A stretch of 64,000 nucleotides of DNA from Tubulanus polymorphus (Eukaryota > Animalia > Nemertea). The notes under the pieces are model-generated. The model saw only the letters and a list, made by a program, of their open reading frames with translations, was not told the origin of the DNA and did no database searches. This document shows positions 1,262 through 35,064 of the stretch, one piece after another. The translations under genes were made by a program, and so were the position numbers. The stretch spans positions 116,836 to 180,835 of the forward strand of contig NW_027437435.1 of the NCBI RefSeq assembly GCF_964204645.1. The letters are read 5' to 3'. Every line of letters starts with the position of its first letter. Position 1 is the first letter of the stretch.

Positions 1262-1534
1262 TTATTCTATAGCTCTGTACATTGAATGTATATAGGCTAA
1301 AATAGAATCATTTTCTAGTATAAACATCGTATCCTCAACGTATTGTTCATTATTTGGATCAGTGTTCCATAATTCAATAAATTTCTTTCCTTTTGTTAAC
1401 TGTTCTGAATATAACTGTAAATATTCTAGTTTCAATTTATTCTCTAAATGTGTTCTAGTTTTATTGTGTCTTGCTTTTTGGGATTTATCTATATCGATAT
1501 TACATGTTGGGCAGTAGAACTTATTTGCTTCCAT
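1262..1534 (-). CDS. Small C2H2-type zinc-finger protein
   Basis: YCPTC-x9-RH-x5-H (YCPTCNIDIDKSQKARHNKTRTH), similar to the pPolB N-terminal finger YCQYCKKYIDTSNKTRHEKTANH. Confidence 0.7.
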   Translation of the reverse strand: MEANKFYCPTCNIDIDKSQKARHNKTRTHLENKLKLEYLQLYSEQLTKGKKFIELWNTDPNNEQYVEDTMFILENDSILAYIHSMYRAIE

Positions 1535-18610: not shown

Positions 18611-18700
18611 AGTAATTAGAATATGTGGCTTTCATACCAGAGGACGAGAGGACGAGACACCACTCATCACCACAAGTAATTTTTTTTCCTAATAAATGGG
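18611..18700 (+). repeat. Left terminal inverted repeat (~90 bp), extending through the pPolB start codon
   Basis: Reverse complement of 34939-35058 apart from a ~30-bp duplication in the right copy. Confidence 0.95.
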
Positions 18701-21700
18701 GGAGAATGAACACCAACTAGAAAACAATAATGTCAATAAAAATCAATATTATTGTCAATATTGTAAAAAATACATCGATACATCTAATAAAACACGACAT
18801 GAAAAAACTGCAAATCATATAAAAAATGTAATAGATTTTGAAACTCCAGAAAATTCCAATGAAAGAAAAGAACGATTAGAAAATATGAATGTGAATGAAA
18901 TAAAATGTGAAGTTTGTGATGAATTTATAACAAAAAGGAATTATAATAGACATCTCGAAACAGAAAAATACCATCAAAATTTGAGAAATAATGTTTTAGG
19001 AATAGATTATTTTGATGATAAACCTCAACAAGTAAAAGAATCAACTTCAAAAACTAAATCCATTTCAAATAAACCTTACATGGAAAATGTTAGAAATTAT
19101 ATTGATTCACTAGAAATAAAAGATACAATTGAAATCTTAGAAACATTACATAGTAAAATTGGTCCTGCAGCTATTATATTTAGATTTTTTAAAGGTACAA
19201 CAATAGAAGATTATAGTAAATTTAATGAAATAATAGAAAAAATACTAGATTTGATAACAGATGTTGAATATCCAAAAATTAGTATCTCTGGGAAAGTAAG
19301 TTTTATAAAGTCAGAAGAAAAAATGAATTATAATATTCAAACACTCTCTGAAGAAATAATTTCAAAAACACAAATAAAAGAGAAGTTAGAAAAAATATTA
19401 AATGAATTTAAACGTCATATTGAAGAAAGATATTTTGAGGGTTCTGGCTTAACATTGAATGAAATTATATATTTAGATTTAAATGTTTATAATACAAAAA
19501 GGAATAAAACATCAAAAAGTAATAAAATGTTTAAAAATGATTCAAACACTTCAACAGAAAAGGATATGAAAGCATCAAGTTATATCAAATTACCGTTTAC
19601 AACAAAAGCAGTAATAAATATTCAAAATGAAGATAATAAATGTTTTCTATGGTCAATTATTAGTTGTTTACACCAAACAGAAGATATGACGCATAGTTTT
19701 AGAATAACAAATTACCAGAAATATGAAACATTATATAAAATTGATCAATATCCAGTAACTATCCAGTAACTAAAATGATTCCTAAAATAGAAAAAATTAA
19801 TAATTTAAAAATAAATGTATTCGAATTAATGCAATTACCAAAGACAAAAGGTGAAAATATTAAAGATTATACATTGGAAGCTTTATATTTAACAGAATAT
19901 TATGATGATGAAAATGCTATAGATTTGTTATATTATAAAAAAGATGAAAATGAACATTATATGTGGTAAAACAAATTGATTTATTCTTTAGAACGGAAAG
20001 TGATCATCATCGTAAAATTTATCTATGTAGAAAATGTTTATCTAAATTTATGACTGAGAATACATTATTAAAACATAAAGAATTATGTGATAATAAAGAT
20101 TTTTGTAAATTAATAATGCCAACAGAAAAAGATTATAAATTGAAATTTACTAATCATAAATTTAAGAATATTGTTCCATTTGTTCCATTTGTAATTTATG
20201 GGGATTTTGAATCGTTGAATAAAGAATTAACTGATCAAGATAGAAAAGAAATATATAACAAAAAGCAATTATTAAAATCAATGGATAAAGGAAATGAATT
20301 AAATGAAGACGCAACACAAGACCCACCAATTATAAATACAATTTAAAAAGTTCATCAAAGAGCTGCTGCTTATGGAATTTACATCAAATCAAATTATCCC
20401 GAATTATATGAAAGTCAATATATTTCTTTTAGAGGTGAAAATGTAGTTAATGATTTTTGTGATAAAATGATTGAATTAGAAAGTGATTTTACAAAATTAT
20501 TAAACAAAAATAAAAGAAAAGTTATGACAAAAGAAGATGAAATTGATTTTAATTATGCAACTCATTGTTGTTATTGTGAAAAACGTTTTTATTCATTTGA
20601 TAAAAGAGTTAGAGATCATGATCATTTGAATTCAAAATATCGTGGAGCTTCTCATGAAGATTGCAATTTACAAGCTAAAAAAGTAAATTTCGTACCAATA
20701 TTATTTCATAATTTATCAGGATATGATACCCATCTATTTATAAAACAATTATCGGGAAAATTGGGCGCAATTAATCAAGAAATAGAAGAATATAATGCTA
20801 TGAATGAAGCAAATGTAAGAAAATATGATTTTAAACTATTAGCTAAAACATCTGAAAATTATATTTCATTTCAATTTGGTTGCATTAGATTTTTAGATTC
20901 TTATAGATTTCTAGCAAGTTCATTAGATAATTTATCAAAAAGTTTAGTTGATAATGATTTTGTTATAACTCGATATTATTATCCAAATGAACAAGATTTT
21001 AAATTATTGAGATATAAAGGCGCAATTCCTTACTCATTTTATAAAACACACGATGATTTTAATGTAACAGAATTATTAAAAGATCAATTTTATGATCAAT
21101 TAAAAGAGGAGTATGTGAAAGACGAAGTGTTTAATAGAACATTAAATATTTGGAACCATTTTAAGATGAAAAATCATGGGGAATTAGTTGATTTATATTT
21201 AAAATCAGATGTTATGATATTGGCTGACATATTTGAAAAGTTTAGAGAAGTTAATCTAAACCATTTTAATGTTGACCCTTGTTATTGTTATTCAAGTCCT
21301 GGTTTAACCTGGCAATGTGGTTTAAAATATACAAATGTAGAATTAGATTTATTAAATGAACCAGATATGGTTTTATTATTTGAAAAATCAATTAGAGGTG
21401 GAATTAGTGGTGTTATGGGAGATAGGTATTTTAAAGCAAATGATGAATATAAATTATTATATATTGACGCCAATAATTTATATGGTTGGGCAATGATGCA
21501 ACCTCAACCATATACAAATTTTATATTAACAGAAGTTGAAAATGATGATAAAACTAATTGGGAAAGCGCAATTATGAGTTTAGAAGATGAAGCACCAATT
21601 GGTTATTTCTTTGTAGTTGATTTAGAATATCCTGATAACATAAAGTTTAAAACAAGAAACTTACCTTATTGCCCAGAACATTTAACTGTAGATGATAGTT

Positions 21701-23781
21701 ATTTAAGTGAATACCAGAAGAAAATAAAACCGAAAGATCATGTTTTTACAGAAAAATTAATACTTACTCAAAATAATAAATACAATTATATTGTTCATTA
21801 TAGAATGTTAAAATTTTATCTAAAACAAGGAATGAAATTAAAGAAAGTACATAGATATATTGAATTTAATCAATCGAAGTGGTTAGAAAAATATATAGAT
21901 TTCAATACTCAACAGAGAACAATATCAAAAACAGATTTTGAAAAAGATTTCTTCAAATTAATGAATAATAGTTTTTATGGTAAAACATGTGAAAATATTA
22001 GAAATAGAAATGATATTGAATTAGTAAATAATTCTGAACGATTGAGACACCTACAATCAAGTCCTAGACATTTAGGAAATAAAAGGTTTGAGGATTATTT
22101 GACCGCGGTAAAATTAAAAAGAACGTCAATGAAATTTAATAAACCTATTTTCATTGGTTCAACAGTTTTAGAAATATCAAAATTATTAATGTATAATTTT
22201 TATTATAATGTTTTACAACCATTGTTTGGGGAAAAACATATAGAAATTCTGTACTTCGATTCTGTAACGGCCGACACCCCAATATTATTAAAATGTAATA
22301 ATAAAATATTGGTAAGAAGAATTTCAGAAATAATTCCAAAACAAAATGAATGTTATATTTCATATGGAGAAAAAGAATTAATACAAATAAATGGATTAAT
22401 GGATGTTTGGACAAGAAATGGATGGAAAAAATTAAAGAATATTATTAGGCATAAAACAAATAAGAAAATCTATAGAGTTAGAACTAAATTAGGATTCGTA
22501 GATGTTACTGAAGACCATAGTTTAATTAAACGAAATGGTGATGAAATAAAACCAACTGATATAAAAATTGGAGATGAATTATTACATAAAAGATTTTTCC
22601 AAAGAATGAATCTTAAGTCATTTGATGAAATAATTGATAATATTTATAATATAGAACCTGAAACATTAGAAGAAAAAGAATATTTTATCAAAGGATTTTT
22701 CATGGGTGACGGTTCAGCAGGTGTGTATAAATATGTTTGGGGTAATAAATATTGTTGGTATTTATGCAATCAAGACTTAAAATTATTAGAAAGAATTAAG
22801 AAATTTTGCGAAGAAGTTTATTCACATAAAACATTTAGAATCATGGATGTTATGAAATCATCAGCAGTTTATAGAATACTTGTAAATAATCCTAAAGATT
22901 TTGCTATAGAATATAATGATGAATTCTATATTCATGCAATAGTGAAAAGTAATACTTCAACTAAAGAAAAAATAGTACCAGATTATATATTAAATTCAGA
23001 ATATAATCTTAGAAAATGGTTCTTCATTGGGTTCTACGCAGTCGATGGTACTAAAAAATTTACAAAGGATAAAAAGATAACCTTTACACAGAAAGGAAAA
23101 GTTGCGATATCAGGGTTAAATATATTATGTAATTCATTAGGTTTCAATATGAATATTGGATTGATTAAATCTAAACCAAATTGCTTTAATCTAAGCCACA
23201 CAGAAAAAGATTTAACTGAAGAAGTTAAAGATTTATTTGAAATATATAACCCAACTGACTATGTTTATGATTTATCAACAGATGATGGAACATTCAATTC
23301 TGGGTTCCCATTAATCCAAAAAAATACTGATGCGTACATACTAAAAATGAAGACAAATGACATAACGAAAGACTTAAAAACATTAAAACATCATTTTGAT
23401 TTTAGCAATTATGCTAAAGATCATGAACTATTTAGCAATGATAATAAAAAGATTCCTGGTAAATTTAAAGATGAATTAGGGGGTGATGAAATGATTGAAT
23501 TTGTTGGGATAAGAAGTAAAATGTATAGTTACAGAACAAAAGATCACGAAGCTAAAAAGTTAAAAGGAATAACAAAACATGTGGTTGATAAACATATAGA
23601 ATTTCAAGATTATATAAAGTGTTTATATAAATCAATTGTAATGAAACACAAGATGAATTGTTTAAGATCAGAAGATCATGAGATGTACATTAATGAAGTT
23701 GAAAAAACTAGTTTGAATCCATTTGATGATAAAAGGCATATTTCAGATGATGGTATAAAAACATTACCTTATGGTTATTAA
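18696..23781 (+). pseudogene. polB: Protein-primed family B DNA polymerase polyprotein (zinc fingers, putative terminal protein, OTU-like protease, exonuclease with EndoVII-like insert, polymerase with intein), disrupted
   Basis: Motifs IYGDFES (ExoI), FHNLSGYD (ExoII), YLKSDV (ExoIII), YIDANNLYG (A), KLMNNSFYGK (B), YFD|TD (C), GKFKDE, KMY and KLKGI. Split into four ORFs by an 11-bp duplication (19749-19770), a 1-bp deletion (~19967) and an in-frame TAA (20344-20346). Confidence 0.95.
22261..23325 (+). mobile_element. Intein (355 aa) with LAGLIDADG homing endonuclease, in pPolB motif C
   Basis: LYFD|SVTADTPI...IQKN|TDA; block B VTEDH; two LAGLIDADG-like motifs IKGFFMGDG and FIGFYAVDG; block F VYDLST. 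Confidence 0.95.
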
Positions 23782-25079
23782 AACATAAAATCAATATCAT
23801 CATACTCGAAATCACTATTGGCTTCTTCATTTTCATTTAATTGTTCAGGTTCTTCTTCCATTCCATTTTTCTCATTTAAATAAAGTTCTATCTTGTTCCA
23901 CATTTCATCTCGCTCTCTTTGTTTCTTTTTGTTTGTTAATTCATCAAATGGAATTATAATATCTAGGTTTAAATAATTTACAATCTTATTTAAAAAGAAT
24001 TCATAATTTATTGAATCTGTTATTCTATTTTCCAAATGATACATTAATATTTGTTTAAATATTTTTTTTATATTTTCCATATCTTCTTCTGTTAATTTAG
24101 GTTTTTCATAATAATCGTTAAATAATAAATATAAATACATTTTCTTTTGTTTTGTGTTAAATGTTGGTGGAATAATTGTTTTTATAATATCTTTTTTAGT
24201 TATTTCACCATTTTTATTTTCTATTATTTTCATTTTTTCAAGCCATTGCATATATTCTGGTGTATGATCTTCTATAGAAAATATTTTAAAAATTTCATCT
24301 AGATAATTTAATTTTGGTTCTATGAGAAAATCTCTAGTTTTTTCTTCACCCCATAAATTCTTTTGCCATCCACATTCAACACAAAATAACACAGTACCTT
24401 CTTGCCTTAAGGTCGCATAACTACATTGTGGGCATTTTTGTTTATAATTTCTTGGTAATAGATCTTCATTAAGCTCTTGGTATTTTCTTACGTTTTCTTT
24501 ATGTTTTATTGTTCTATTATGTAGATTTGAATTACTTGTTGTAATAATCAATTTACAATATTTACAATAATATGTTTTTCTTGTTAATTCATTATATTGT
24601 TTTTCTAACTTTTCAACTGTTTCTTTATTATCTGGTAACGTTTTCTCATATTTTATTTTTTCTAATAAATTATTTTTTCTTTCATTGAATTCAGTTTCAA
24701 ATTTATTAGAAATTTTATCTATATGTGCTTTACGAAATTGATGATTCTCCCAATCTTCTATATTTTCAGGGTTATATTTTACTTGACAAGGCTCACAGAA
24801 ATAATCTTTTATATTATCCTTATCATAGAATAAGAAAGGTCTTTTCCAAATAACTTCAGGTTCAACTTCAGCAGAATTACTATCAACATTAGCTGTTGCA
24901 CCATTAATTCTACACTTCTCTGAATGTTTTTTAACATAATTTCTTGAGAATAATTTATTACATTTTGGACAGTTTATTTTAGGGGGTTTATAATTTTCAT
25001 CATGTTTTTTCATATGTCGAGCCATATTACTTTTTCTTAGAAGTTCACCACAAATTTCGCATGCTATCTTCTCATCCAT
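23778..25079 (-). CDS. Multi-zinc-finger protein with a C-terminal VLTF3 (poxvirus A2)-like late transcription factor region
   Basis: About four C2H2/C2HC fingers, then a CPQC-x13-CVECG zinc ribbon and SINYEFFLNKI...IPFDELTNKKKQRERDEMWNKI, resembling the recalled VLTF3 C-terminal pattern (Y.Y.L.K....L......P.LK...K....D..W..I). Confidence 0.7.
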   Translation of the reverse strand: MDEKIACEICGELLRKSNMARHMKKHDENYKPPKINCPKCNKLFSRNYVKKHSEKCRINGATANVDSNSAEVEPEVIWKRPFLFYDKDNIKDYFCEPCQVKYNPENIEDWENHQFRKAHIDKISNKFETEFNERKNNLLEKIKYEKTLPDNKETVEKLEKQYNELTRKTYYCKYCKLIITTSNSNLHNRTIKHKENVRKYQELNEDLLPRNYKQKCPQCSYATLRQEGTVLFCVECGWQKNLWGEEKTRDFLIEPKLNYLDEIFKIFSIEDHTPEYMQWLEKMKIIENKNGEITKKDIIKTIIPPTFNTKQKKMYLYLLFNDYYEKPKLTEEDMENIKKIFKQILMYHLENRITDSINYEFFLNKIVNYLNLDIIIPFDELTNKKKQRERDEMWNKIELYLNEKNGMEEEPEQLNENEEANSDFEYDDIDFMF

Positions 25080-25147
25080 TTATTAAGGAATAATTTTATT
25101 AAAATTAATTTTTAGTGATGAGCGGTAATTTTTTTATGTTATAAATA

Positions 25148-25909
25148 ATGGTAGAATTAAAAGAATACAGAATATTTATTGATTCTAGAAAACTTACAAA
25201 TTATAAATCTCATAATTTACTAGTACAATTAGATAGAGAATTCAAGAATTGTGTAGATTTAAAATTAGTTAATATAAGTTTATGTAATTCTTTTTACAAT
25301 GTATCGGATAAGTCTATTGAACATAGAGTCTTTTTAGTTTTTAATAAAAATAAAAATGAATGGGTCTATATATATTTAAAACCAGGGTTATATAATTTAG
25401 ATACATTAGCACAAGAAATTAATAGAAAAGCCTGGCACAAATTAGGTAGTAGTTCTGGGTTTAGTATTAGATTTTTAAAAAGTGAGAGTTCTGATAGAAT
25501 AAAGATAAGGTTGTCTAATAGTGAAAAACATAAACTTATGGTAAAAAAACCTATAGCTAAACTGTTAGGAATTCTTCCAGATAGATCTTTTACAAATATT
25601 GATGCTACTACACCAAACTTAATACCTTACACACATTTTTATATTTATTGCAATTTAATCGATCCTACAAAAACATTCGAAGCAACTAAAGATATAACTT
25701 GTAATTCTGGTTTACTAAACATTTTACCATTGAAGAATGTTAAAGAATTTGGAACGCAAATAAATTATAATTTAACAGAATGTGATTTCAAACCATGCAT
25801 TCCTAGTTTTAATAATTTTAGATTAGAAATTAGAAATCATAATGGATACTTAATTGATTTAAATAATTTCCCTGTAATTTATGAATTAGTTATAAGATGT
25901 AAAGAGTAA
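25148..25909 (+). CDS. Minor capsid protein (penton, single jelly roll)
   Basis: Penton-like pattern: IFIDSR, SFYNV, PGLYN, FYIYCNLI, LNILP, FRLEIRNHNGYLIDLN; beta-rich. Confidence 0.8.
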   Translation: MVELKEYRIFIDSRKLTNYKSHNLLVQLDREFKNCVDLKLVNISLCNSFYNVSDKSIEHRVFLVFNKNKNEWVYIYLKPGLYNLDTLAQEINRKAWHKLGSSSGFSIRFLKSESSDRIKIRLSNSEKHKLMVKKPIAKLLGILPDRSFTNIDATTPNLIPYTHFYIYCNLIDPTKTFEATKDITCNSGLLNILPLKNVKEFGTQINYNLTECDFKPCIPSFNNFRLEIRNHNGYLIDLNNFPVIYELVIRCKE

Positions 25910-25926
25910 TTTTTTTCACTATATAA

Positions 25927-26268
25927 ATGAATATAACTGTTGGACCGAGTATATGTTTTGGGTTTGATTTTAAACATGGTAAAGAAATGAGAATTAAACT
26001 AAATGATGTAATTACTGATATAAAAAGTAAATCATTTAACAATGCATCAATGATTGATAAAGAAAAGTATAATATAGAAAAAGTAATTGATTTAATTAAA
26101 TCACCTTTAGAATATTATGAATTAAATGAAGATGGAATTATTGAAGATATTAAAAACATATTAACCAAAATATATGATAATCATAAAACTAGTAATGAAA
26201 TAAATGTTGAATTAATCATAAATAAGTTAACTAAATATTTTGATGATAGTAATTTTTTTGATAAATAA
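25927..26268 (+). CDS. Hypothetical protein
   Basis: 113-aa ORF with TAAATG start, in the collinear gene block. Confidence 0.75.
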   Translation: MNITVGPSICFGFDFKHGKEMRIKLNDVITDIKSKSFNNASMIDKEKYNIEKVIDLIKSPLEYYELNEDGIIEDIKNILTKIYDNHKTSNEINVELIINKLTKYFDDSNFFDK

Positions 26269-26490
26269 ATGAGTGATAATAAGTGGATAATAACTGGATT
26301 ATATAATGGCGCATTACTATCAGTTGGAACTGTTGGTTATTCAATGGTATTAAAAAAAGTATTCAAAATGGGAAGTGTTAATGTTGATAGATTTGATATA
26401 AATGATATTCTAAAATTAACATTAGCAGTTACTTTATCTAATTTAACTATTGATTACTTGGAAAAACAAAAATATATTCCTCCCATATAA
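26269..26490 (+). CDS. Small hydrophobic protein, putative virion membrane protein
   Basis: 73 aa, two moderately hydrophobic segments, TAAATG start abutting the upstream stop. Confidence 0.75.
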   Translation: MSDNKWIITGLYNGALLSVGTVGYSMVLKKVFKMGSVNVDRFDINDILKLTLAVTLSNLTIDYLEKQKYIPPI

Positions 26491-26514
26491 ATACATAATT
26501 TTTTTGTTAAATAA

Positions 26515-26937
26515 ATGGCTTCTGCAATTATAACTATTATAGGATCAGCAATTGTTAACGCTTTAGCATTTACTGGTGGTGGTTATTTATTTAAACATAT
26601 TGATAAAAATAGTTCATTAGGAGAACAAAGAAGACATAACTTAGCGTTAGAGAAATACAATAAAGCTGCAGAAGAATATAGAGAAAAGAGACAAAACTAT
26701 ATGGATTATATTAACAAAGAATTATATGATCAGAAGATTTCACACAGAGATTTTCAATCAGTTGATGATGCAATGAGTTTATATAACGCAGTAACAAATA
26801 AAGAAAAATTACATCTATACAAACCTAAATTATCAGATTATTATACCCCAAGTAAAGAACAACAGAAATATGAAATAATATGGATTTTAGGTGGAACTGT
26901 TATTGTTATATTTGTTGCTTATAAATTTACTAATTAG
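26515..26937 (+). CDS. Putative membrane protein (N- and C-terminal hydrophobic helices, central helical region)
   Basis: MASAIITIIGSAIVNALAFTGGGYLF...RHNLALEK...IIWILGGTVIVIFVAY; TAAATG start. Confidence 0.8.
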   Translation: MASAIITIIGSAIVNALAFTGGGYLFKHIDKNSSLGEQRRHNLALEKYNKAAEEYREKRQNYMDYINKELYDQKISHRDFQSVDDAMSLYNAVTNKEKLHLYKPKLSDYYTPSKEQQKYEIIWILGGTVIVIFVAYKFTN

Positions 26938-26956
26938 TAATTTTTATTCTAAATAA

Positions 26957-27391
26957 ATGGAAGATAAAGTTGATAGTATTGATATTATTCCTCATGATAT
27001 AAATAAAACTAAATTAAAAACATATTTAGAAAAACAAATATTAGAATTTGAAAGTGACTTAAAGATAAAAAAGAAAAAATATTTAAAATCTAAAATTATA
27101 GATTATTTGATTATAAGTGGTTCGGTTACAATTAGTTCTGTAATAACATTTCTAGCAATATTCAGTCCATTAACACCTTTAGCTATATCAATTGGTGTAT
27201 TAGGATTAAGTTCAAGTGTTTTAACTGGTATAAGTTCAAAATTAAATATAAAAAGTAATAAAGAAAAAATTAAAACTAATATAAAAGAAATTAATAAATT
27301 AAAGAATACACTAGATTATATAATAAGTTTAAATGGTCATATAACAGTTGAAGAACAAGATAAATTATTAAAAGAATTAGTTAATTATTAA
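26957..27391 (+). CDS. Two-TM-helix protein with flanking coiled coils
   Basis: Hydrophobic hairpin at aa ~51-95; TAAATG start. Confidence 0.8.
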   Translation: MEDKVDSIDIIPHDINKTKLKTYLEKQILEFESDLKIKKKKYLKSKIIDYLIISGSVTISSVITFLAIFSPLTPLAISIGVLGLSSSVLTGISSKLNIKSNKEKIKTNIKEINKLKNTLDYIISLNGHITVEEQDKLLKELVNY

Positions 27392-27407
27392 TTTTTTAAT
27401 TATATAA

Positions 27408-28709
27408 ATGGGGTTTCCAAAAGCTTTCCAATATAATAAATCAATTAAATATAATATTCCGGCAATAGATTTTAAGAAAAATATTACATATAAAAATATA
27501 GTTTTAAATTCATTAACTAATTTAGAAATTTATGTTAATGAATCACAGTTTTTTATTTCTAAAATGGAAAATATATTTAATACATATGAAGTTACTTTTA
27601 CTCGAGATGAATATCATATATATAAAGTAAAATCTAATATGAAATATTGGCAGAATCAATTAAATTTTGCTGTTTATTGTGCAACAACAGGATGTGGAAT
27701 TAGTTGGAATGATCATTTAAATAACTTAGATAAAAATTTGAAGTATTCTGATTTAAAATTAATTCACACAATATTTAGATTTCACACATATTTTCAAATC
27801 AGAATAATATTAAATGAATTAGAATGTCCTTTACCCGGGTCTAAATATTTTAAAGAATTGGATAATAATATTAATATATCCAAGTTTTATAAAATATGTA
27901 ATGAATTTAATATAAATATTAATTCCGATTTCAGAGCGCATGGTAAATTGCAAGGTGTTGGTGAACAGTAGGAAATAAAAAGAATTGATTATATGCATAG
28001 AATTGGAGCTTATCATAATTATAAAATTGATAATAATAATGGTTGGGTTAATTTCATTTTAGAAAATGGTGAAGGTTTTACAAAATCAGTTATACAAAGA
28101 ATAAATCAATCTATTAGAATTTATTTGATATGTATTTTAGGCGCTCAAGTTGAAACAAGATCCCCAATAATTGGAAATGATAACACTTCATTCGATGCGC
28201 AGAAACAGTTTAAAGTTTTATTTGAAGATTCAATTCATAATTATAAAAATAGATCGATTCCAGAAAACATTATAAGATATCAAAATTATTTAGATAAATC
28301 TCATGTAAGACTAAATTATTGTATAGGCCCTAATCTATTAATTATTTCTAATGATTTAGTATTAAAGATGGGAAACATAATTGGTTATAATAATCTAATT
28401 AAAACTGCAACAATAAATAATTCATTTGGGTTAAATGATATAAATAAAAAGATTATCACTGCTCCAAAATTAATGGAAGGTGAAAAAAATAAAAAACACA
28501 TTCAATCAACTGAAACTAAAACTAAGAATATTAAATTGGATAATGATTCCAAAATAAAAGATTACAATACATCAGAAAATATAAAAACTGATAAAATTCA
28601 ACATGATATAATTAAAACTGATAATGATAATAAATCACATGAAAATACTAAATTAGCTATAACTTGTATAGGAATTGTAATCGGAGGAATATTATATTTT
28701 AAATTTTAA
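27408..28709 (+). pseudogene. Polinton protein of unknown function with C-terminal TM anchor, interrupted by one in-frame TAG (27969-27971)
   Basis: ORFs 27408-27971 and 27993-28709 are in the same frame and only the first has a TAAATG start. Motifs QLNFAVYCATTGCG and ILGAQVETRS. Confidence 0.75.
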
Positions 28710-28726
28710 TTTTTTTTATTATATAA

Positions 28727-30166
28727 ATGGAAGTAGAAGGTGTAGAAGATATTGGAATGGATCCTTTTGATGAACCTGGTATAACTGATGAACAACCACC
28801 TGATTTTGATGAAACAAGTTTCAGTAACGAAAATGAAACAGCATATAATTCTAATTTAGCAAGACCTGATACCAATGAATATGTTAATAAAGCACGTTCA
28901 AGATTGGATATTGAAAATGAAAATCCAGATTTAATGAAAAAAGAACTAGAATATGACGAATTAACAGATAAATTCAAACCAATATTAGAAAAATCTGGAT
29001 TCAATATAACAAATAAAGGTGTGAATTATTTAGTAAAAGATTTGAAATATTTAAATGGTGATTATTATTGGCATTTGAAAGATGACTATTATTTTAAGAT
29101 TTCTTCTAATAAAAGTCTTGATAAAATAATAACAAAATCAACTTTTATTAAATTAGAACAATCTAAAATTAAAAAAATCAATAATGATGTTATAACTGAT
29201 GTTACAGAAGAAGAGATAAATCAAAATAGAAGAGAATTTAATCGAAGAAATAATGATTTTTTGAAGATAATTAATGAAAATTTAGAACCAGAAACAATTC
29301 CTAAAGAAGATAAAACTTCCAAAACTAGTAGACCTAATTCAAGAGAAGTTCAAACTGAAAAACTTTTACCGAAGGGATTACTTGATGCAACAGATCAAGA
29401 ATTAGAAGATTTAGATATATTTTCTGATAAAGCAATTAGAGAAATTATTAGTATAAGACTTGCATCTGATAAAATTGCACATAATAAAAGTATAAGAGAT
29501 TTTAAAATTAGAACTTTAGAAAAAGAATTAACTGATAAAAATAAAGAAATAGAACAATTAAAGTCTGATTTAGATCATCAAGTAATTGATGAAATAGAAT
29601 ATAGGCAAAAAGAATTACGTTTAGAAAAAGAAAAAGATGATTTAGAATATAACATAGAATTACAAAAAGAAGAAATTAAATTATTGTTAAAATCATATGA
29701 TTATAATATTAATAGATTAAAAGTTATTTTTAAAGATTTGTTGATTAAACCAAATTCTGAAATATCACTAAAAGACAGAATAAGATTATTATTTAAATTA
29801 GAAGGAATAACAATTCTTTCAATTCTAACAGCTGTAACTATGTTATTCACAACAATAGGTTTAGCAATATCAAATGCTTTGAAATCTACTCCTACTCCCA
29901 ATAAACCAGATAAACCTCCAGGTAATAATTCTATACAAGATAAAGTTAAGGATGGTTTAAAGAAATTAGCAAAATATTTATGGGAACTATCTAAAAAATC
30001 TGCTGCAGCATTGCCAGGAGTTATTGCTTCAATTGTTGGTTTTATATTGAAATCTGCAGGAAACATTATTAACTTTGCTGCTGAACATATTATTTTATTT
30101 TTAATTACGGTTGTAAGTGCTATTATTTTTGGTTTAGTAAATATGATATCAAAAAATATCAAGTAA
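28727..30166 (+). CDS. Acidic/coiled-coil protein with C-terminal hydrophobic helices (putative membrane-active or virion protein)
   Basis: 479 aa; DETSF motif, coiled coil at aa ~255-330, EGITILSILTAVTMLFTTIGLAI and ALPGVIASIVGFIL. Confidence 0.8.
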   Translation: MEVEGVEDIGMDPFDEPGITDEQPPDFDETSFSNENETAYNSNLARPDTNEYVNKARSRLDIENENPDLMKKELEYDELTDKFKPILEKSGFNITNKGVNYLVKDLKYLNGDYYWHLKDDYYFKISSNKSLDKIITKSTFIKLEQSKIKKINNDVITDVTEEEINQNRREFNRRNNDFLKIINENLEPETIPKEDKTSKTSRPNSREVQTEKLLPKGLLDATDQELEDLDIFSDKAIREIISIRLASDKIAHNKSIRDFKIRTLEKELTDKNKEIEQLKSDLDHQVIDEIEYRQKELRLEKEKDDLEYNIELQKEEIKLLLKSYDYNINRLKVIFKDLLIKPNSEISLKDRIRLLFKLEGITILSILTAVTMLFTTIGLAISNALKSTPTPNKPDKPPGNNSIQDKVKDGLKKLAKYLWELSKKSAAALPGVIASIVGFILKSAGNIINFAAEHIILFLITVVSAIIFGLVNMISKNIK

Positions 30167-30207
30167 ACCATGATAAAAAATAAATAATTAATTTTTTTGT
30201 TAAATAA

Positions 30208-31455
30208 ATGAGTGGGAGTTATATAAGCCCTTCCAAGATTTCTAGAATATCTAATGCTATTAAAGCAGAAAGATCACATCATATAATTACTCATAACCCT
30301 TCAAATATTAATCCCGATGAAACTTTATATGTTAGAATTCCTAGATTAACACAAAATACTTTTTATGTTCCAAATAGTATTTATTTATCAGCTGATATAA
30401 AAGTAATCGGTAATAACAATAATTATGTTGTTGATGATGTTGGAAGATATTTGATTAAAAAGTTAACAATAAAGATTGGTCCAGAAACAGTTTTCTCATT
30501 AGATGATTATAATTTATTTATGCATTATAAAGATTTATGGTTAACTAAAGAAAATAGAAATAATATGATATTTCAGGGTATTCAATCAGAAAACCAAAAT
30601 AAATTAAGATCAGAAGCTAATAGCGCAATATTAACAAATGATGTAGATAAATTGATAAAAAGTATATATGGAAGCAAATATAAAATTCCATTAGACTTTG
30701 AATTGATAAATAATAATGCACCTTTATATAAATACGCAATTCAAGAAGATATTATATTTGAGATAACATTTGCTCCTGTAAATGAAATTGTATTATCTAG
30801 CGTTAATAAAGATATGAGTTATAAATTATCGAATATATGTTTAGAATATGATACAGTAACTGATGAAAATATTTCAAGTATAATTCAAACTAAATATAAT
30901 CAAGGGTTTTCATTATTATATGATTATATTGATAAATTTAAAACTGTAACTATTAATGCAAATGATGAAATAATTAATGAGAATATTAACTTTCCTAGAA
31001 GATCTATTAAAGGTATATTAATATTTTTTACTATTGCAACATATTCTAATGGTGCAATAAATGTTGATAATTATTATAATCCTGAAATAACAAAAGTAGA
31101 AATAACTATCGAAGGAATAGCGAATAAAATATTTTGTCAAGGAATGAGAATGATTGATCAATGGCCAGAAATTAAAAAACATTTTATGAATGAAAAAGTA
31201 AAATCATTTGAAAATTGTAATATTAATCAAATTGATTATTATACCGGTAATAAATATGCATTATGGTTAGATTTTAGAACAACAGAGGATAATTCATTAC
31301 ATGGTTCTGGGAAAAAACTACAAAATACAAAAGATGGAATACAATTATTCATGACAAAGAATAAAGGAATCAAAAATTTTAAAATGCATATTTATATTAT
31401 ATCTGACGCGCAATTAAATATTGTAAATTCACAATTAGATAGTATTCAATATTAG
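30208..31455 (+). CDS. Major capsid protein (double jelly roll)
   Basis: 415 aa, beta-rich, next to integrase and ATPase; NPSNINPDETLYVRIP, NICLEYD, RSIKGILIFF and LWLDFR patterns as recalled for polintovirus MCPs. Confidence 0.8.
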   Translation: MSGSYISPSKISRISNAIKAERSHHIITHNPSNINPDETLYVRIPRLTQNTFYVPNSIYLSADIKVIGNNNNYVVDDVGRYLIKKLTIKIGPETVFSLDDYNLFMHYKDLWLTKENRNNMIFQGIQSENQNKLRSEANSAILTNDVDKLIKSIYGSKYKIPLDFELINNNAPLYKYAIQEDIIFEITFAPVNEIVLSSVNKDMSYKLSNICLEYDTVTDENISSIIQTKYNQGFSLLYDYIDKFKTVTINANDEIINENINFPRRSIKGILIFFTIATYSNGAINVDNYYNPEITKVEITIEGIANKIFCQGMRMIDQWPEIKKHFMNEKVKSFENCNINQIDYYTGNKYALWLDFRTTEDNSLHGSGKKLQNTKDGIQLFMTKNKGIKNFKMHIYIISDAQLNIVNSQLDSIQY

Positions 31456-31485
31456 AAATATAAAGTTAAAATTAAGGATATATAA

Positions 31486-32613
31486 ATGAGTGGTAAAAAA
31501 ACTCCTAATACTAAAGAACAATATTTAAGAAATTTATATTACAACCCTGAGAGTTCGGTTGCTTATTCTTCTACTAAAAATATATGGCGTAAAGTAAAAC
31601 AAGATAAATTAGATAAGATAATCCCACAAAATTTAGTTAAATATAAAGATAAAAATGAATTTATGTTAGAACAACCAACATATACAACACATAAAAAAAT
31701 TGTTAGAAAATATAAAACTCGTAAAACTATGGTAAGTTATGTAGATCAACAGTGGCAAGGAGATTTAATTGATATGAAAAATCTTAAAAAAGATTATAAT
31801 GATTATTGGTGGATATTGAATATAATTGATATTTTTAGTCGTTATGTATGGAGCTTCCCACTTTATAGAAAAGATGCTGCACAAACATCACATGTTTTAA
31901 GAAAATTTCTTTCAGGTGGTAAACTAAAACCAGAAAAAATACAATTTGATGATGGAAAAGAATTTGATAATTCATTAGTTCATGGACTTTTAGATTTTCA
32001 TAATATTAAATATTTTTCAACAAAATCAGATAAAAAAGCAGCAGTTGTTGAACGATTTAATAGAACATTAAGAACAAGAATGTGGAAATATTTTACAGCA
32101 AATAATACTTTGAAATGGATTGATATTTTACCAAAATTGATAGAAGGATATAATAATTCTTATCATTCTTCTATTGGAATGAAACCTATTAATGCTAGAA
32201 AACCTGAAAATGCTGAAATTGTTTGGAATAATTTATATGGAGCATTTCTTATAGATGATTTTGGTGAATCTAAATTTAAAGTTGGTCAAAATGTTAGAAT
32301 TTCTAAGTATAAAAAGATATTTGATAAAGGATACGATCGAAATTTTACTAGGGAAATATATAAAATAAAAAAGGTAATAACAACAAAACCATATGTCTAT
32401 AAATTAGAAGATTTAGATGGTGAAGAAGTTGATGGCTACTTTTACGAAGAAGAATTAAGTTTAACTACTGAAAATCTAGAACAAGAATATAAAATTGAAA
32501 AAGTACTAAAAACAAAAACTGTTAAAAGAAAAAAATATTCTTTAGTAAAATGGGTTGGATGGCCAGATAAATTTAATGAATGGATATTATCAAGTAAAAT
32601 TAAAAATATATAA
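31486..32613 (+). CDS. int: Retroviral-like (rve) DDE integrase with C-terminal chromodomain
   Basis: WQGDLID, IDIFSRY, QFDDGKEF, VVERFNRTL and YNNSYHSSIGMKP; chromodomain YKIEKVL...LVKWVGWPDKFNEWI. Reading frame intact. Confidence 0.95.
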   Translation: MSGKKTPNTKEQYLRNLYYNPESSVAYSSTKNIWRKVKQDKLDKIIPQNLVKYKDKNEFMLEQPTYTTHKKIVRKYKTRKTMVSYVDQQWQGDLIDMKNLKKDYNDYWWILNIIDIFSRYVWSFPLYRKDAAQTSHVLRKFLSGGKLKPEKIQFDDGKEFDNSLVHGLLDFHNIKYFSTKSDKKAAVVERFNRTLRTRMWKYFTANNTLKWIDILPKLIEGYNNSYHSSIGMKPINARKPENAEIVWNNLYGAFLIDDFGESKFKVGQNVRISKYKKIFDKGYDRNFTREIYKIKKVITTKPYVYKLEDLDGEEVDGYFYEEELSLTTENLEQEYKIEKVLKTKTVKRKKYSLVKWVGWPDKFNEWILSSKIKNI

Positions 32614-33222
32614 ATGAATAAGGAATTATTTATATTTGAGTCTCATAATATGTTAATTTCTGGCGTAACAAATTGTGGAAAAACTTATTTTATATTAAAT
32701 TTATTAGAAACTGTTTATGAAAACTATTTTGATAATATAGTATTATTTTGTCCAACATATGAATTTAATCAAACTTATGATAGAAATATTACTAGGAATA
32801 ATAAATTTATTATATTAGATCCTAAAACAGTAAAAGAAAATTTAGATAATTGTATTAAAATAGCAATTGATATTTATAAAGGATCTAATACATTATTTAT
32901 TATTGATGATTGCGCAAATTTACATGATTCTAAAATTAGAGAAAGTGAGTTATGTTATTTAGCTTTCTCTGGGAGACATTTTGGGATAACAACTTGGGTT
33001 TTAAATCAAAAATATAATTCAATTGTTAAAGACTTTAGAGAAAACATTAGATTTCTAGTTTTATTCTACAATAAAGATAGAAAATCAATGAAAAATGCAC
33101 TTGAGGAAAATGATATTATTCCACATGATTTACATAATGAATATATGGATAAGTTGAAAAATATTAAAAGATCAAAATTACTATTTAGATTACAACACCC
33201 ATTTAAATATGAATTTATTTAA
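32614..33222 (+). CDS. A32/FtsK-HerA-like genome packaging ATPase
   Basis: Walker A GVTNCGKT, Walker B LFIIDD, SGRHFG, LNQ, FREN. Confidence 0.92.
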   Translation: MNKELFIFESHNMLISGVTNCGKTYFILNLLETVYENYFDNIVLFCPTYEFNQTYDRNITRNNKFIILDPKTVKENLDNCIKIAIDIYKGSNTLFIIDDCANLHDSKIRESELCYLAFSGRHFGITTWVLNQKYNSIVKDFRENIRFLVLFYNKDRKSMKNALEENDIIPHDLHNEYMDKLKNIKRSKLLFRLQHPFKYEFI

Positions 33223-33223
33223 A

Positions 33224-33486
33224 TTCAACTAGCTTGTTAATCTAATTGAATTCTAGTTGAATTCTAGTTATTGGTAGTTGTAACAAAAATCAACTAGATT
33301 TAACAATATTTTAACTAGCTTGTCAATCTAGTCTAATTCTAGTTACATTCTAGTTGAATTCTAGTTGTTAGTAGTTGAAACAAAAATCAACTAGATTTAA
33401 CAAGAAATAAACAAAAACAACAATATTTCAACTAGCTTGTTAATCTAGTTGAATTCTAGTTACATTCTAGTTGAATTCTAGTTGCA
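33224..33486. repeat. Intergenic CTAG-rich compound repeat (three units of ~85-115 bp built from 11-bp ATTCTAGTTGA subunits)
   Basis: AACTAGCTTGT starts three units (~33227, ~33313, ~33430); CAAAAATCAACTAGATTTAACAA occurs twice. Confidence 0.85.
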
Positions 33487-33517
33487 ACATCACACAATTA
33501 ATTTATTTGTTTTATAA

Positions 33518-34123
33518 ATGGGAGGTGAAAAGAAAATAAAATCTAAAAATGGTGATGTTCCAATTGAAAAAACTTTAGATGATTTAGGAATAACAGAAAC
33601 AAAATTAACTCCAGATGATGGTGCTTTAAATATTGTTACAACAAATAATAATTATGAATATTATCTTTATTGTAAACATCAATTAGAAATATTAATAGCA
33701 TCTGGAAAATGTAAAAATTTTATCGGTAAAAATTTAACTTATAATGAATTAGATACAATGAAATCAGATGAAATTATTAGATTATTTAAGATTTATGAAG
33801 CCGCGAGAACAGCTAGAATTAATGACGCGATATCAGAAAATGTAGTAAAAGGTTATAGTAAATTATGTAATTATATACTACCAATTGAAGATGAAAATAG
33901 ATTATATTCCGATTTAAAAAATGATTATTTAGTTATGACTGAATTAAATAAATGGATTGGATATTTATCATTTCAATTAGGAGGATTTATGACATTATTA
34001 TCAACTGGTGTTATAACATTTTCAAATATTGAAAGTAAAAATATTTCTATAATAAATGAGCGAAGTGAAAGAAGTGAAGGAATTAACTGTGAAGAAAAAA
34101 CCGAGAACTCAGAAACAAATTGA
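33518..34123 (+). CDS. Hypothetical protein with hydrophobic C-terminal segment
   Basis: 201-aa ORF, TAAATG start. Confidence 0.8.
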   Translation: MGGEKKIKSKNGDVPIEKTLDDLGITETKLTPDDGALNIVTTNNNYEYYLYCKHQLEILIASGKCKNFIGKNLTYNELDTMKSDEIIRLFKIYEAARTARINDAISENVVKGYSKLCNYILPIEDENRLYSDLKNDYLVMTELNKWIGYLSFQLGGFMTLLSTGVITFSNIESKNISIINERSERSEGINCEEKTENSETN

Positions 34124-34424
34124 ATGGTCTCGACAATTAGGAATTAAATCACAAGAATATAAAAAAGCTGTAAAAGAAAAAATAAGTAATAAAAATGTTA
34201 ATAAAAATGGTGAAAATATTGTTATTTCTACTCCTTCTAATAGTAGAATATTTGATAAATATTTATATTTTACAGTTGGATTTGTAATTGTATTCATTTT
34301 GATTGGGTGTAATTGGTATAAGAAATCAAATAAAATTCATGATATTAGTAATTCTGAACCAACTGCTATCAAAAATGAAAGTACTTCTGAAATTCCAAAA
34401 TTGATAATAAAAAAAATGGATTAA
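34056..34424 (+). CDS. Basic single-TM protein
   Basis: 122 aa; KKKPRTQKQIEW; TM segment YLYFTVGFVIVFILIGC; TAAATG start overlapping the upstream gene. Confidence 0.75.
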   Translation: MSEVKEVKELTVKKKPRTQKQIEWSRQLGIKSQEYKKAVKEKISNKNVNKNGENIVISTPSNSRIFDKYLYFTVGFVIVFILIGCNWYKKSNKIHDISNSEPTAIKNESTSEIPKLIIKKMD

Positions 34425-34616
34425 TATTTTAGAAAAAAAGCAAAAAAAAATAATTTTTTTTAATTAATTGAATATTAATTGAATATCTCACTACTTTTGT
34501 CTATCACTGTGTGGTGCTGTTTATGGCACCATCTATGTGGAGCAATTAAATTGTCCAGATAAGTCATTTCGGATTCTAGATATTCATTATTTTTATTAAT
34601 TTATTTTTTTTAAAAT

Positions 34617-34943
34617 TTAATCAACAATTTCTAAATCATGATGACCGTCTTCATTTTTCCCATGATATATTATTTTAAATCCTACTAAATCTTTCAATTC
34701 CTCCGTACTCAATGAAACCCATTTATCGGGTAAAAACACTTTAAATTCTCGTGATGTACTAACATTACAGTAGCTTAAATTAGCTGATACTTTCTCTCCA
34801 TATTTAGTTTTTATCTTTTCTAATTTCAATATTTTATGTTCAATTTCTTTTGTAACATCAACTAACTTTTTTATTTCAAATTGTTTTTTTGCTGGTTTTA
34901 TTCTGTTATTTATTGTTGCTAAGAATGCTTTTCTATCTCCCAT
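34617..34943 (-). CDS. Small beta-rich protein, possible OB-fold ssDNA-binding protein
   Basis: TKYG...KVFLP pattern; starts inside the right TIR with the same upstream sequence as polB. The function is inference. Confidence 0.65.
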   Translation of the reverse strand: MGDRKAFLATINNRIKPAKKQFEIKKLVDVTKEIEHKILKLEKIKTKYGEKVSANLSYCNVSTSREFKVFLPDKWVSLSTEELKDLVGFKIIYHGKNEDGHHDLEIVD

Positions 34944-35058
34944 TTATTAGGAAAAAAAATTACTTGTGGTGATGAGTAGGAAAAAAAAATTACTTGTGGT
35001 GATGAGTGGTGTCTCGTCCTCTCGTCCTCTGGTATGAAAGCCACATATTCTAATTACT
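34939..35058 (-). repeat. Right terminal inverted repeat with internal ~30-bp tandem duplication
   Basis: TAGGAAAAAAAA(A)TTACTTGTGGTGATGAG occurs twice (34948-34976 and 34977-35006). Confidence 0.95.
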
Positions 35059-35064
35059 GTCGTT
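35059..35064 (+). repeat. Right 6-bp target-site duplication GTCGTT
   Basis: Matches 18605-18610. Confidence 0.95.

What the first reader, a model, noticed from the sequence alone, without database searches (positions are those of the whole stretch)
18611..35058. Satellite-embedded polintovirus with three giant-virus/poxvirus-type traits: candidate integrated hyperparasite (virophage-like) system
Seen: a complete element with perfect TSD inside a satellite, a LAGLIDADG intein in PolB motif C, a VLTF3-like gene, TAAATG at nearly every start, and no RNA polymerase gene. Established: TAAATG is the poxvirus late promoter/initiator, VLTF3 (A2) is an NCLDV core transcription factor, motif-C PolB inteins occur in NCLDVs such as mimivirus, and virophages share promoter motifs with their helper virus. 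Inference: the element is transcribed by a co-infecting NCLDV's machinery, supplies or competes with a late factor, acquired its intein during co-infection, and persists in satellite heterochromatin.
Basis: partly seen in the sequence, partly recalled or inferred. Interest (0 to 1): 0.9.

Follow-up and report, generated by a model that had tools for sequence, protein, structure and literature searches.

The report
Polinton lineage with poxvirus late promoters
A virus-like jumping element (a Polinton) sitting in satellite DNA starts nearly all its genes at poxvirus-style late-promoter sequences and carries a late transcription factor that groups with those of poxviruses, traits shared with its relatives, so this lineage likely multiplies by borrowing a poxvirus's transcription machinery, although this copy's polymerase gene is broken.

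Summary
The element is real: 16,448 bp, terminal inverted repeats, a 6-bp target duplication, inside a 118-bp satellite. It is a Polinton/Maverick with double-jelly-roll capsid, integrase and packaging ATPase; no protease was found. It is not intact: the polymerase is in pieces and one conserved gene has a stop. TAAATG starts 14 of 15 genes (background 5-7%), behind a T-run placed as in vaccinia late promoters. The motif marks a lineage: 42 of 48 starts in close relatives, 1 of 215 in other Polintons, 0 of 38 in AT-rich ones. The VLTF3 domain passes the Pfam cut-off and groups with poxvirus A2 (100/99), not with the other giant-virus sets sampled. These two traits point to a poxvirus-type helper (about 60%). 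The main rival is self-directed transcription with host polymerase II. The intein is real but old: its closest relatives sit in other Polinton polymerases, with no poxvirus link. No transcript, helper or copy-number data were obtained. VLTF3 in Polintons and poxvirus-associated Polinton-like viruses are published; my searches found no report of the promoter match.

The parts
18611..35058 (.). Whole Polinton/Maverick element, 16,448 bp, 23.7% GC
18605..18610 (+). Left copy of 6-bp target site duplication GTCGTT
   Evidence: satellite phase
35059..35064 (+). Right copy of the target site duplication
18611..18700 (+). Left terminal inverted repeat (AGTA end); includes the T-run/TAAATG start of the pPolB gene
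34939..35058 (-). Right terminal inverted repeat, with a 30-nt unit present twice; includes the TAAATG start of the 108-aa ORF
18696..23781 (+). [quoted passage not shown]
   Evidence: PF03175 E 2e-19; frames
22261..23325 (+). 355-aa intein with LAGLIDADG endonuclease in polymerase motif C (YFD|S...N|TD), reading frame open
23778..25079 (-). 433-aa protein: N-terminal zinc fingers plus C-terminal VLTF3 (poxvirus A2-like) domain; starts at TAAATG
25148..25909 (+). 253-aa protein, probable minor capsid (penton) protein; inferred, fold not tested; start reads TAAATAATG
   Evidence: weak DUF5901; unnamed viral clusters at 0.98; homologues in related loci
25927..27391 (+). Four small ORFs (113, 73, 140, 144 aa), each starting at TAAATG; the 144-aa one is SLATT-like (below cut-off)
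27408..28709 (+). Conserved ~430-aa gene of unknown function, interrupted by an in-frame stop at 27969
   Evidence: 68% to a single 442-aa ORF in L003
28727..30166 (+). 479-aa coiled-coil protein with hydrophobic C-terminal part, conserved in the family; function unknown
30208..31455 (+). [quoted passage not shown]
   Evidence: model pLDDT 90.7; PBCV-1 and iridovirus capsids, E about 3e-17
31486..32613 (+). rve integrase with chromo-like C-terminus; D, D, E motifs present
32614..33222 (+). A32-type packaging ATPase, Walker A and B present
   Evidence: PF04665 E 1e-12
33241..33484 (.). Non-coding block of 11-bp tandem repeats, function unknown
33518..34424 (+). Two conserved ORFs (201 and 122 aa), both starting at TAAATG
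34620..34943 (-). 108-aa ORF starting at TAAATG inside the right terminal repeat; 73% to an ORF of L003
1883..18610 (.). 118-bp satellite, left flank (orientation flips near 16905)
35059..64000 (.). 118-bp satellite, right flank

Best explanation
This is an integrated, polymerase-defective copy of a Polinton lineage whose genes start at poxvirus-late-type promoter sequences and which carries a poxvirus-type late factor (VLTF3), so the lineage is likely transcribed by the RNA polymerase of a co-infecting poxvirus-type virus and would live as a virophage-like parasite of it. Shown: the anatomy, the motif and its lineage-wide conservation, the VLTF3 identity and grouping, the breaks. Inferred: (1) the rve integrase inserts the element into host DNA, where it would stay silent; (2) infection by a poxvirus-type helper supplies RNA polymerase and late factors that start within TAAAT and make leaderless, poly(A)-headed mRNAs; (3) because the pPolB and VLTF3 genes carry the same signal as the capsid genes, no gene looks able to start the cycle alone; (4) the element's VLTF3 would boost its own promoters or compete with the helper's A2; (5) pPolB copies the linear genome and the capsid/ATPase module packages it. 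This copy could take part only with polymerase from another copy. The intein is an older passenger that spreads among Polinton polymerases.
For: TAAATG at 14 of 15 gene starts against 29 of 628 other ATGs, binomial p 3e-18; only 2 of the 14 use the stop of the upstream gene. T at -14 in 15 of 15, T-run at -16..-11 (mean 4.86 T against 2.17 at the 29 non-start TAAATG sites, p 1.6e-5), purine at +4 in 15 of 15. Vaccinia late promoters have TAAAT(G) over the start codon and a conserved T ten bases upstream among other Ts (PMC11980589; PMC5294985), which is position -13 here. Relatives: 42 of 48 homologous starts in 15 clade loci, 8 of 8 in L053, 1 of 215 in the other 64 loci, 0 of 38 in those of 38% GC or less; the state maps to a 15-row clade of the capsid tree, 100/99, and holds in a 44% GC member. 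VLTF3: PF04947 27.0 bits, cut-off 25; 29 of 30 atlas hits are VLTF3 clusters; the only known-family hit among 1.84 billion proteins is a 226-aa protein 63% identical to an entomopoxvirus-type VLTF3; all 14 poxvirus A2 proteins outscore all 14 RKNF-type VLTF3; tree joins it with poxviruses at 100/99 and AU tests reject the three other groupings, p 0.001 or less; 99/97 with a mixture model and the AT-biased and longest rows removed. Precedent: endogenous virophages carrying the helper's late promoter are the ones reactivated (PMC10945749); Polinton-like viruses occur in entomopoxvirus occlusion bodies (PMC11296320).
Against: No transcript, start site, virion or helper was seen; no host genome is held. 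The VLTF3 lies beside, not inside, sampled Poxviridae (pox clade 97/87, 88/72), on long branches that the tree tool flags; egoviruses, mriyaviruses and coral-Polinton VLTF3 were not sampled; outgroups were gathered and labelled by motif patterns. The whole-protein Pfam scan missed VLTF3 and the fold model was too poor to test. The T-run sits about one base further upstream than in the poxvirus control and is stronger; that control is a few orthologous genes. How a cytoplasmic helper polymerase would reach an integrated nuclear copy is not explained. Sister Polintons show other start-proximal boxes, so such boxes can arise within Polintons. VLTF3 is seen directly in only the window and L003 (5' part); its link to other clade members rests on matching contig lengths. 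The intein gives no poxvirus signal. Poly(A)-signal content did not separate motif-bearing from other elements.
Confidence: 0.6

Rival explanations
1. Helper-independent: an ancestor captured VLTF3 and its promoter logic from a poxvirus-like virus, and the element now uses its own VLTF3 with host TBP and RNA polymerase II in the nucleus as a private switch.
For: Other Polinton clades carry their own start-proximal boxes (TATAGA-like in L016/L017, TATAAAA in L059, L021/L023). Earlier scan notes describe Polintons with their own TBP and matching boxes (untested here). A paper titled as showing that TBP targets vaccinia intermediate and late promoters is in the reference list of PMC5294985 (title only). 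An integrated copy sits in the nucleus.
Against: The VLTF3 and pPolB genes start at the same signal, so no early class is visible. A polymerase II TATA box would lie 25-30 bases before the start site (recalled), whereas here the conserved block abuts the ATG, and T at -3 is a poor start context for a normal leader (recalled). Vaccinia A2 is one of three late factors working with the viral polymerase.
Confidence: 0.25
2. The motif is an element-specific initiator or translation signal that only resembles the poxvirus one, and the VLTF3 grouping is a long-branch artefact; any helper would be another giant virus.
For: Short AT-rich motif; long branches flagged; VLTF3 is already known in some Polintons and PLVs without a poxvirus link (PMC11131425; bioRxiv 10.64898/2026.06.19.733378); the intein's non-Polinton relatives are RNA-primed viral-type PolBs with no named poxvirus.
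Against: Two independent traits point to the same family; the INY motif of the factor is the poxvirus form, not RKNF; grouping survives a mixture model and removal of biased rows; the review of NCLDV promoters gives TAAAT(G/A) at the start only for poxvirus late genes, with a ranavirus polymerase promoter as a partial exception.
Confidence: 0.12
3. TAAATG is a by-product of 76% AT content and tight gene packing (stop-start junctions).
For: The element is 23.7% GC; two starts are true stop-start junctions.
Against: Background 4.6% of other ATGs, 6.8% of other first-ATGs-after-stop; 0 of 38 starts in AT-rich Polintons outside the clade; present at 36-44% GC inside it.
Confidence: 0.02

Closest known systems
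Mavericks/Polintons (Polintoviricetes, 'adintoviruses'), probably group 2 (PMC4028283; PMC8502044; bioRxiv 10.64898/2026.06.19.733378)
   Same: Size, terminal repeats, target duplication, pPolB, rve integrase, A32 ATPase, double jelly-roll capsid; protease not detected, as is more usual outside group 1; VLTF3 has been noted in some members (PMC11131425).
   Different: Poxvirus-late-type promoter at nearly all genes, and a VLTF3 that groups with poxvirus A2; neither was found in the papers searched. Motif-C intein with full Hint and LAGLIDADG domains (endonuclease inserts in Polinton pPolBs are mentioned in PMC11161782).
Entomopoxvirus-associated Polinton-like viruses (Barth et al. 2024, PMC11296320)
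   Same: Proposed hyperparasites of poxviruses; two have capsids next to the group 2 Polinton clade.
   Different: They use tyrosine recombinases or have no known integrase; the paper's main text holds no 'promoter', 'TAAAT', 'VLTF' or 'intein'. Their link is physical (occlusion bodies); here it is promoter and factor, with no physical link.
Mavirus and endogenous mavirus-like elements (EMALE type 4) with CroV (PMC10945749)
   Same: rve-integrating pPolB element whose genes carry the helper's late promoter; the working model here.
   Different: Virophage capsid lineage, protist host, mimivirus-type helper, reactivation shown by experiment; none of these holds or is shown here.
Poxvirus late promoter and late factor A2/VLTF-3 (PMC11980589; PMC5294985)
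   Same: T-rich core, short spacer, TAAAT(G) over the start codon; homologous factor with the INY motif and a zinc ribbon.
   Different: The element's factor has about 200 extra N-terminal residues with zinc fingers and lies outside sampled Poxviridae; no A1 or G8 partner and no polymerase is encoded.
PolB motif-C (YGD|TDS) inteins of large DNA viruses
   Same: Same insertion motif, Ser first residue, Asn last, LAGLIDADG domain; 35-42% identity.
   Different: Host protein is a protein-primed polymerase; closest relatives (42-63%) are in other Polinton polymerases and form one clade.

Membership tests
Polinton/Maverick (Polintoviricetes) | Terminal inverted repeats and short target site duplication | tested here: met
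   77-nt perfect arms, 6-bp GTCGTT duplication
Polinton/Maverick (Polintoviricetes) | Protein-primed family B polymerase | tested here: met
   PF03175 E 2e-19; gene present but broken
Polinton/Maverick (Polintoviricetes) | rve integrase and A32-type ATPase | tested here: met
   PF00665 35.8 bits, PF04665 48.2 bits, both over cut-off; motifs
Polinton/Maverick (Polintoviricetes) | [quoted passage not shown] | tested here: met
Polinton/Maverick (Polintoviricetes) | [quoted passage not shown] | tested here: inconclusive
   253-aa ORF matches only unnamed viral clusters; not folded
Group 1 Maverick-Polintons / adintoviruses as first collected | Adenovirus-like cysteine protease gene | tested here: not met
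   No protease family among 19 ORFs; found in 74% of Polintons and typical of group 1
Group 2 Maverick-Polintons | Capsid protein falls in the group 2 clade | tested here: inconclusive
   Tree holds no named reference; assignment inferred from gene content and a 38% relative named from the bivalve Mactra antiquata
Virophages (mavirus type) | Virophage-type capsid protein and protease | tested here: not met
   Mavirus capsid ranks 46th by fold, below PBCV-1 and iridovirus; no protease
Virophages (mavirus type) | Genes carry the helper's late promoter motif | tested here: met
   Sequence match to the poxvirus late motif; helper itself not identified
Virophages (mavirus type) | Replication depends on a co-infecting large virus | not testable with these tools
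   Needs infection experiments
Poxvirus late promoter | TAAAT(G) over the start codon with T-rich core about 10 bases upstream | tested here: met
   against PMC11980589; offset about one base
Poxvirus late promoter | Start within the A triplet, non-templated 5' poly(A) head, viral polymerase | not testable with these tools
   No RNA reads of the element were examined
VLTF3 / poxvirus A2 (PF04947) | Profile match at the curated cut-off | tested here: met
   27.0 bits against 25 for the C-terminal 230 aa; missed with the whole protein; atlas 29 of 30
VLTF3 / poxvirus A2 (PF04947) | Same fold | tested here: inconclusive
   Single-sequence model pLDDT 45; best BFVD hit cowpox VLTF3 at E 0.02, no hit under 0.001
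Class 1 intein at PolB motif C | Ser/Cys first, Asn last, nucleophile at +1, Hint domain, insertion at (Y)xD|TD | tested here: met
   PF14890 E 7.5e-5 is under its cut-off; 277 homologues at E 0.001 or less
Class 1 intein at PolB motif C | Splices and homes | not testable with these tools
   Only indirect: filled and empty alleles within one related cluster

The most novel reading that the evidence does not exclude
A widespread lineage of integrating Polintons are endogenous virophages of poxviruses: they lie silent in host chromosomes, wake on poxvirus-type infection through the helper's late machinery, and use a captured A2-like factor to divert it, so each host that carries them marks a poxvirus-type virus, perhaps from a branch not yet sampled.
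Probability: 0.45. Interest if true: 0.92.

Novelty: new variant of a known kind. Interest (0 to 1): 0.8.

Why it matters
How animal-type Polintons are transcribed and whether they need a helper is open, and no virions have been seen. A lineage with a defined 20-bp poxvirus-type promoter makes helper dependence testable with a simple reporter assay. If true it extends the integrated-virophage lifestyle from protists and mimivirus-type helpers to poxviruses, may be a heritable antiviral system, and gives a genomic marker for unsampled poxvirus-like viruses. The VLTF3 branch beside Poxviridae also bears on the origin of poxvirus late transcription.

Tried and rejected
Whole genome not held, so no copy count and no search of the host for poxvirus genes. 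Word-based homologue search with the VLTF3 region: 1152 candidates, none significant. Capsid and pPolB scans of viral contigs: no relatives. Capsid profile against PDB sequences: none. Single-sequence VLTF3 model unusable. Poly(A)-signal and splice-donor depletion against codon shuffles: AATAAA 71 observed against 65.4 expected in the window and 80 against 80.9 in AT-rich elements without the motif, so not discriminating; TTTTTNT is depleted in the window (z -3.0) and close relatives (-4.3) but also in others (-2.1). Three-group VLTF3 tree cannot show sisterhood and was redone with more groups. Search for more poxvirus-like genes among element and clade ORFs against proteins of the 41 fetched poxvirus-search loci: only VLTF3 (these loci cover a small part of a poxvirus genome). 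Genome-collection scan gave three 34-38% hits in bacterial/archaeal bins, probably stray contigs, not used. Larger entomopoxvirus control not available. Rejected: chance or stop-start origin of TAAATG; intein as a recent or poxvirus-linked gain; membership of virophages; 'intact element'. A possible split into A-rich (ATPase, VLTF3, 122-aa ORF) and T-rich (capsid) promoters rests on few genes and overlaps coding DNA; kept as a lead only.

Full report
1. Observation. The window holds a 118-bp satellite from 1883 to the end, broken once by a 16,448-bp insert of 23.7% GC. The insert has 77-nt perfectly complementary ends starting AGTA, about 90 nt if a 30-nt unit present twice in the right arm is allowed for. 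GTCGTT flanks both ends, and the satellite's phase jump of 16,572 = 118 + 16,448 + 6 confirms a 6-bp duplication. Both terminal repeats contain the promoter-like block and the start codon of the first gene on their side.

2. Gene content. Of 26 ORFs of 50 aa or more in 17000-37000 I studied 19, leaving out 2 in the satellite and 5 short nested or overlapping ones. Pfam gives pPolB, rve integrase and A32 ATPase over their cut-offs, and no protease or RNA polymerase domain. The 415-aa ORF folds at pLDDT 90.7 and matches PBCV-1 and iridovirus double jelly-roll capsids at E about 3e-17. The 253-aa ORF is a probable penton, not shown. The element is therefore a Polinton/Maverick; group 2 is inferred, not tested against references. 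It is not intact: the pPolB gene lies in three frames against an intact relative and has an in-frame stop at 20344, and the conserved gene at 27408-28709 has a stop at 27969. Capsid, integrase, ATPase, VLTF3 and intein frames are open. Identical ends and a perfect target duplication suggest a young insertion (inference).

3. The promoter-like motif. TAAATG starts 14 of the 19 ORFs. Four exceptions are inner pieces of the broken genes, leaving 14 of 15 gene starts; the last reads TAAATAATG. Other ATGs in the element follow TAA in 29 of 628 cases (4.6%; p 3e-18); among other first ATGs after a stop the rate is 29 of 426. Only 2 of the 14 use the stop codon of the gene before. The signal is longer than six bases: T at -14 in 15 of 15, a T-run at -16 to -11, A at -18/-17 and -4, purine at +4 in 15 of 15. 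The T-run is absent at the 29 TAAATG sites that are not starts (4.86 against 2.17 T, p 1.6e-5). Vaccinia late promoters have TAAAT, usually followed by G, over the start codon, with a conserved T ten bases upstream among further Ts (PMC11980589, passages; PMC5294985, passages). In 80 distinct TAAATG starts from fetched chordopoxvirus loci T peaks at -13 to -11; in clade relatives at -12; in the window at -14. That control is a handful of orthologous genes of mixed class.

4. The motif marks a lineage. The capsid search found 925 relatives; an alignment of 59 fetched the best 80 of 255 metagenome loci. Counting only ORFs homologous to window genes with complete 5' ends (pPolB pieces, the 238-aa piece and starts offset by over 25 aa dropped), TAAATG stands at 42 of 48 starts in 15 loci with 50% or more capsid identity, 8 of 8 in L053, and 1 of 215 in the other 64 loci, including 0 of 38 in loci of 38% GC or less. 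Some loci are near-copies (L001/L002). In the capsid tree (65 rows; loci with under 300 aa of capsid left out) the state holds in 14 of 15 rows of one clade (100/99), plus long-branched L053 in the next clade, and in none of a 44-row sister group. It holds at 20 to 44% GC. L003 is a near-syntenic relative with 13 of 13 and the 5' end of the same VLTF3-type gene. AT richness and gene packing are thus excluded.

5. VLTF3. The whole 433-aa protein shows only zinc fingers, but its last 230 aa score 27.0 bits on PF04947, cut-off 25, and 29 of 30 atlas hits are VLTF3 clusters. Among 1.84 billion representatives only 4 proteins match: three unnamed, two of which share contig lengths with capsid relatives (an inference), and a 226-aa VLTF3 that is 63% identical to a gene in a 232,392-bp viral contig, which I read as an entomopoxvirus from gene content and recalled length. 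I gathered VLTF3 from viral contigs with four motif patterns (motifs recalled; 38 of 40 hits gave a matching ORF; sets thinned by identity; 4 checked by Pfam). All 14 poxvirus proteins outscore all 14 RKNF-type ones; asfarvirus- and iridovirus-type sets score under 5 bits. In a 39-row tree the four element-type proteins join the poxviruses at 100/99, and grouping them with any of the other three sets is rejected (p 0.0009, 0.00007, 0.001). With a mixture model, another aligner setting and nine rows removed (both entomopoxvirus-type rows, the longest row, six for speed) support is 99/97. The factor lies beside, not within, sampled Poxviridae, though nesting with entomopoxviruses is not rejected (p 0.42). 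Branches are long, and egoviruses, mriyaviruses and coral-Polinton VLTF3 are missing. The fold test was inconclusive.

6. Intein. It spans aa 599-953 of the 1104-aa piece, Ser to Asn, at YFD|TD. Of 277 homologues the best 120 were listed. The top hits (42-63%) are mostly in other protein-primed polymerases; then come RNA-primed PolBs with YGD|TDS sites (about 30-42%) and topoisomerase II inteins. In a 114-row tree (7 of 120 dropped for unclear ends) the window's intein and 7 others from protein-primed polymerases form one clade (SH-aLRT 100) among PolB motif-C inteins; one of the 7 is in a different pPolB class. Almost all hosts are unnamed, none is named poxvirus, one looks phage-like and one is an algal polymerase delta. 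In one 136-member cluster, 7 of 15 listed members carry the intein, 6 span the site without it and 2 do not reach it, and the related locus L008 has an empty site. So the intein entered Polintons long ago from a large DNA virus and likely still homes among copies. It supports contact with large viruses in general, not this helper.

7. How it most likely works. Shown: anatomy, motif, lineage pattern, factor identity. Inferred: the lineage integrates by its rve integrase and is transcribed by a poxvirus-type RNA polymerase during co-infection, as mavirus-type elements are by CroV (PMC10945749, passages). The polymerase and VLTF3 genes carry the same signal as the capsid genes, so nothing looks able to start alone. 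The own VLTF3 would favour the element's promoters or compete with the helper's A2. This copy would need polymerase from elsewhere. Confidence 0.6. The main rival (0.25) is a captured factor used with host TBP and polymerase II; sister elements have their own boxes, and unchecked scan notes describe TBP-bearing Polintons. How a cytoplasmic polymerase reaches a nuclear copy is unexplained. A test of poly(A)-signal avoidance did not discriminate. The host is unknown; an animal is inferred from the family and a 38% relative named from a bivalve. Copy number, insertion preference and expression stay open.

8. What is known. VLTF3 in some Polintons is published (PMC11131425, passages and section 8; PMC8502044, passages and sections 7, 10; bioRxiv 10.64898/2026.06.19.733378, passages). 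Poxvirus-associated Polinton-like viruses are published (PMC11296320, abstract, parts 2-3 of 7, term search), without promoter analysis in the main text. Endonuclease inserts in Polinton pPolBs are mentioned (PMC11161782, passages). Also seen as passages: PMC4028283, PMC5499653 (no VLTF3), PMC12220804, bioRxiv 10.1101/2024.03.23.586382, PMC4542343 (reference list only). Searches for Polinton with TAAATG, with entomopoxvirus and promoter, with TAAAT or late promoter and with intein listed no paper reporting a poxvirus late promoter in Polintons or a poxvirus grouping of their VLTF3; I saw listings only for most hits, and the library lacks most subscription papers. No supplements were read; those of PMC11296320 and PMC11131425 may bear on novelty. 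One earlier scan note (e1-8580207) reports a similar system in another genome; it is unchecked and not independent support.

9. Verdict. Observation partly confirmed, interpretation partly supported. A new variant of a known kind: a Polinton lineage with two independent poxvirus-type traits, a clear bench test, and no direct evidence of a helper yet. Interest 0.8.

Noticed in passing
Proteins P0138 and P0257-P0270; P0141, P0274, P0277: Filled and empty intein alleles within one 90%-identity cluster of Polinton polymerases on long contigs; residues flanking empty and filled sites differ, as co-conversion during homing would give.
   Followed up: partly
L016, L017, L047, L060 (sister clade); L059, L021, L023, L029, L051: Other start-proximal boxes instead of TAAATG: TATAGA/TATACA-like a few bases before ATG, or TATAAAA directly before ATG. 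May mark other helpers or own factors.
   Followed up: no
L003:10340-10981: Deoxynucleoside kinase gene (PF01712, E 2e-31) with a TAAATG start in the closest syntenic relative; fits replication where nucleotides are scarce.
   Followed up: no
L053:8186-12253: Element with TAAATG at 8 of 8 homologous starts but a different pPolB class, no intein and a long-branched capsid; its pPolB ORF as called does not start at TAAATG.
   Followed up: partly
window 23778-25079, 31486-33222, 34056-34424: VLTF3, integrase, ATPase and the 122-aa ORF have A-rich, T-poor upstream blocks, unlike the capsid-module genes; could be an intermediate-like class, but partly overlaps coding DNA.
   Followed up: partly
window 33241-33484: Block of 11-bp tandem repeats in longer 97-117-bp units between the ATPase and the 201-aa ORF.
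   Followed up: no
window 16905: The 118-bp satellite changes orientation here, 1.7 kb left of the insertion; it is CpG-rich (observed/expected 2.5) while the element is CpG-poor (0.52).
   Followed up: no
window 25-798 and 1265-1534, minus strand: Two ORFs left of the satellite (258 aa with 7-aa repeats, open at the window edge; 90 aa with a zinc finger), no Pfam family at cut-off and no match to the element; perhaps another mobile element.
   Followed up: partly
Proteins P0046, P0285-P0292: Capsid relatives (54%) are filed under Bartonella on short contigs, probably host DNA in those assemblies.
   Followed up: no
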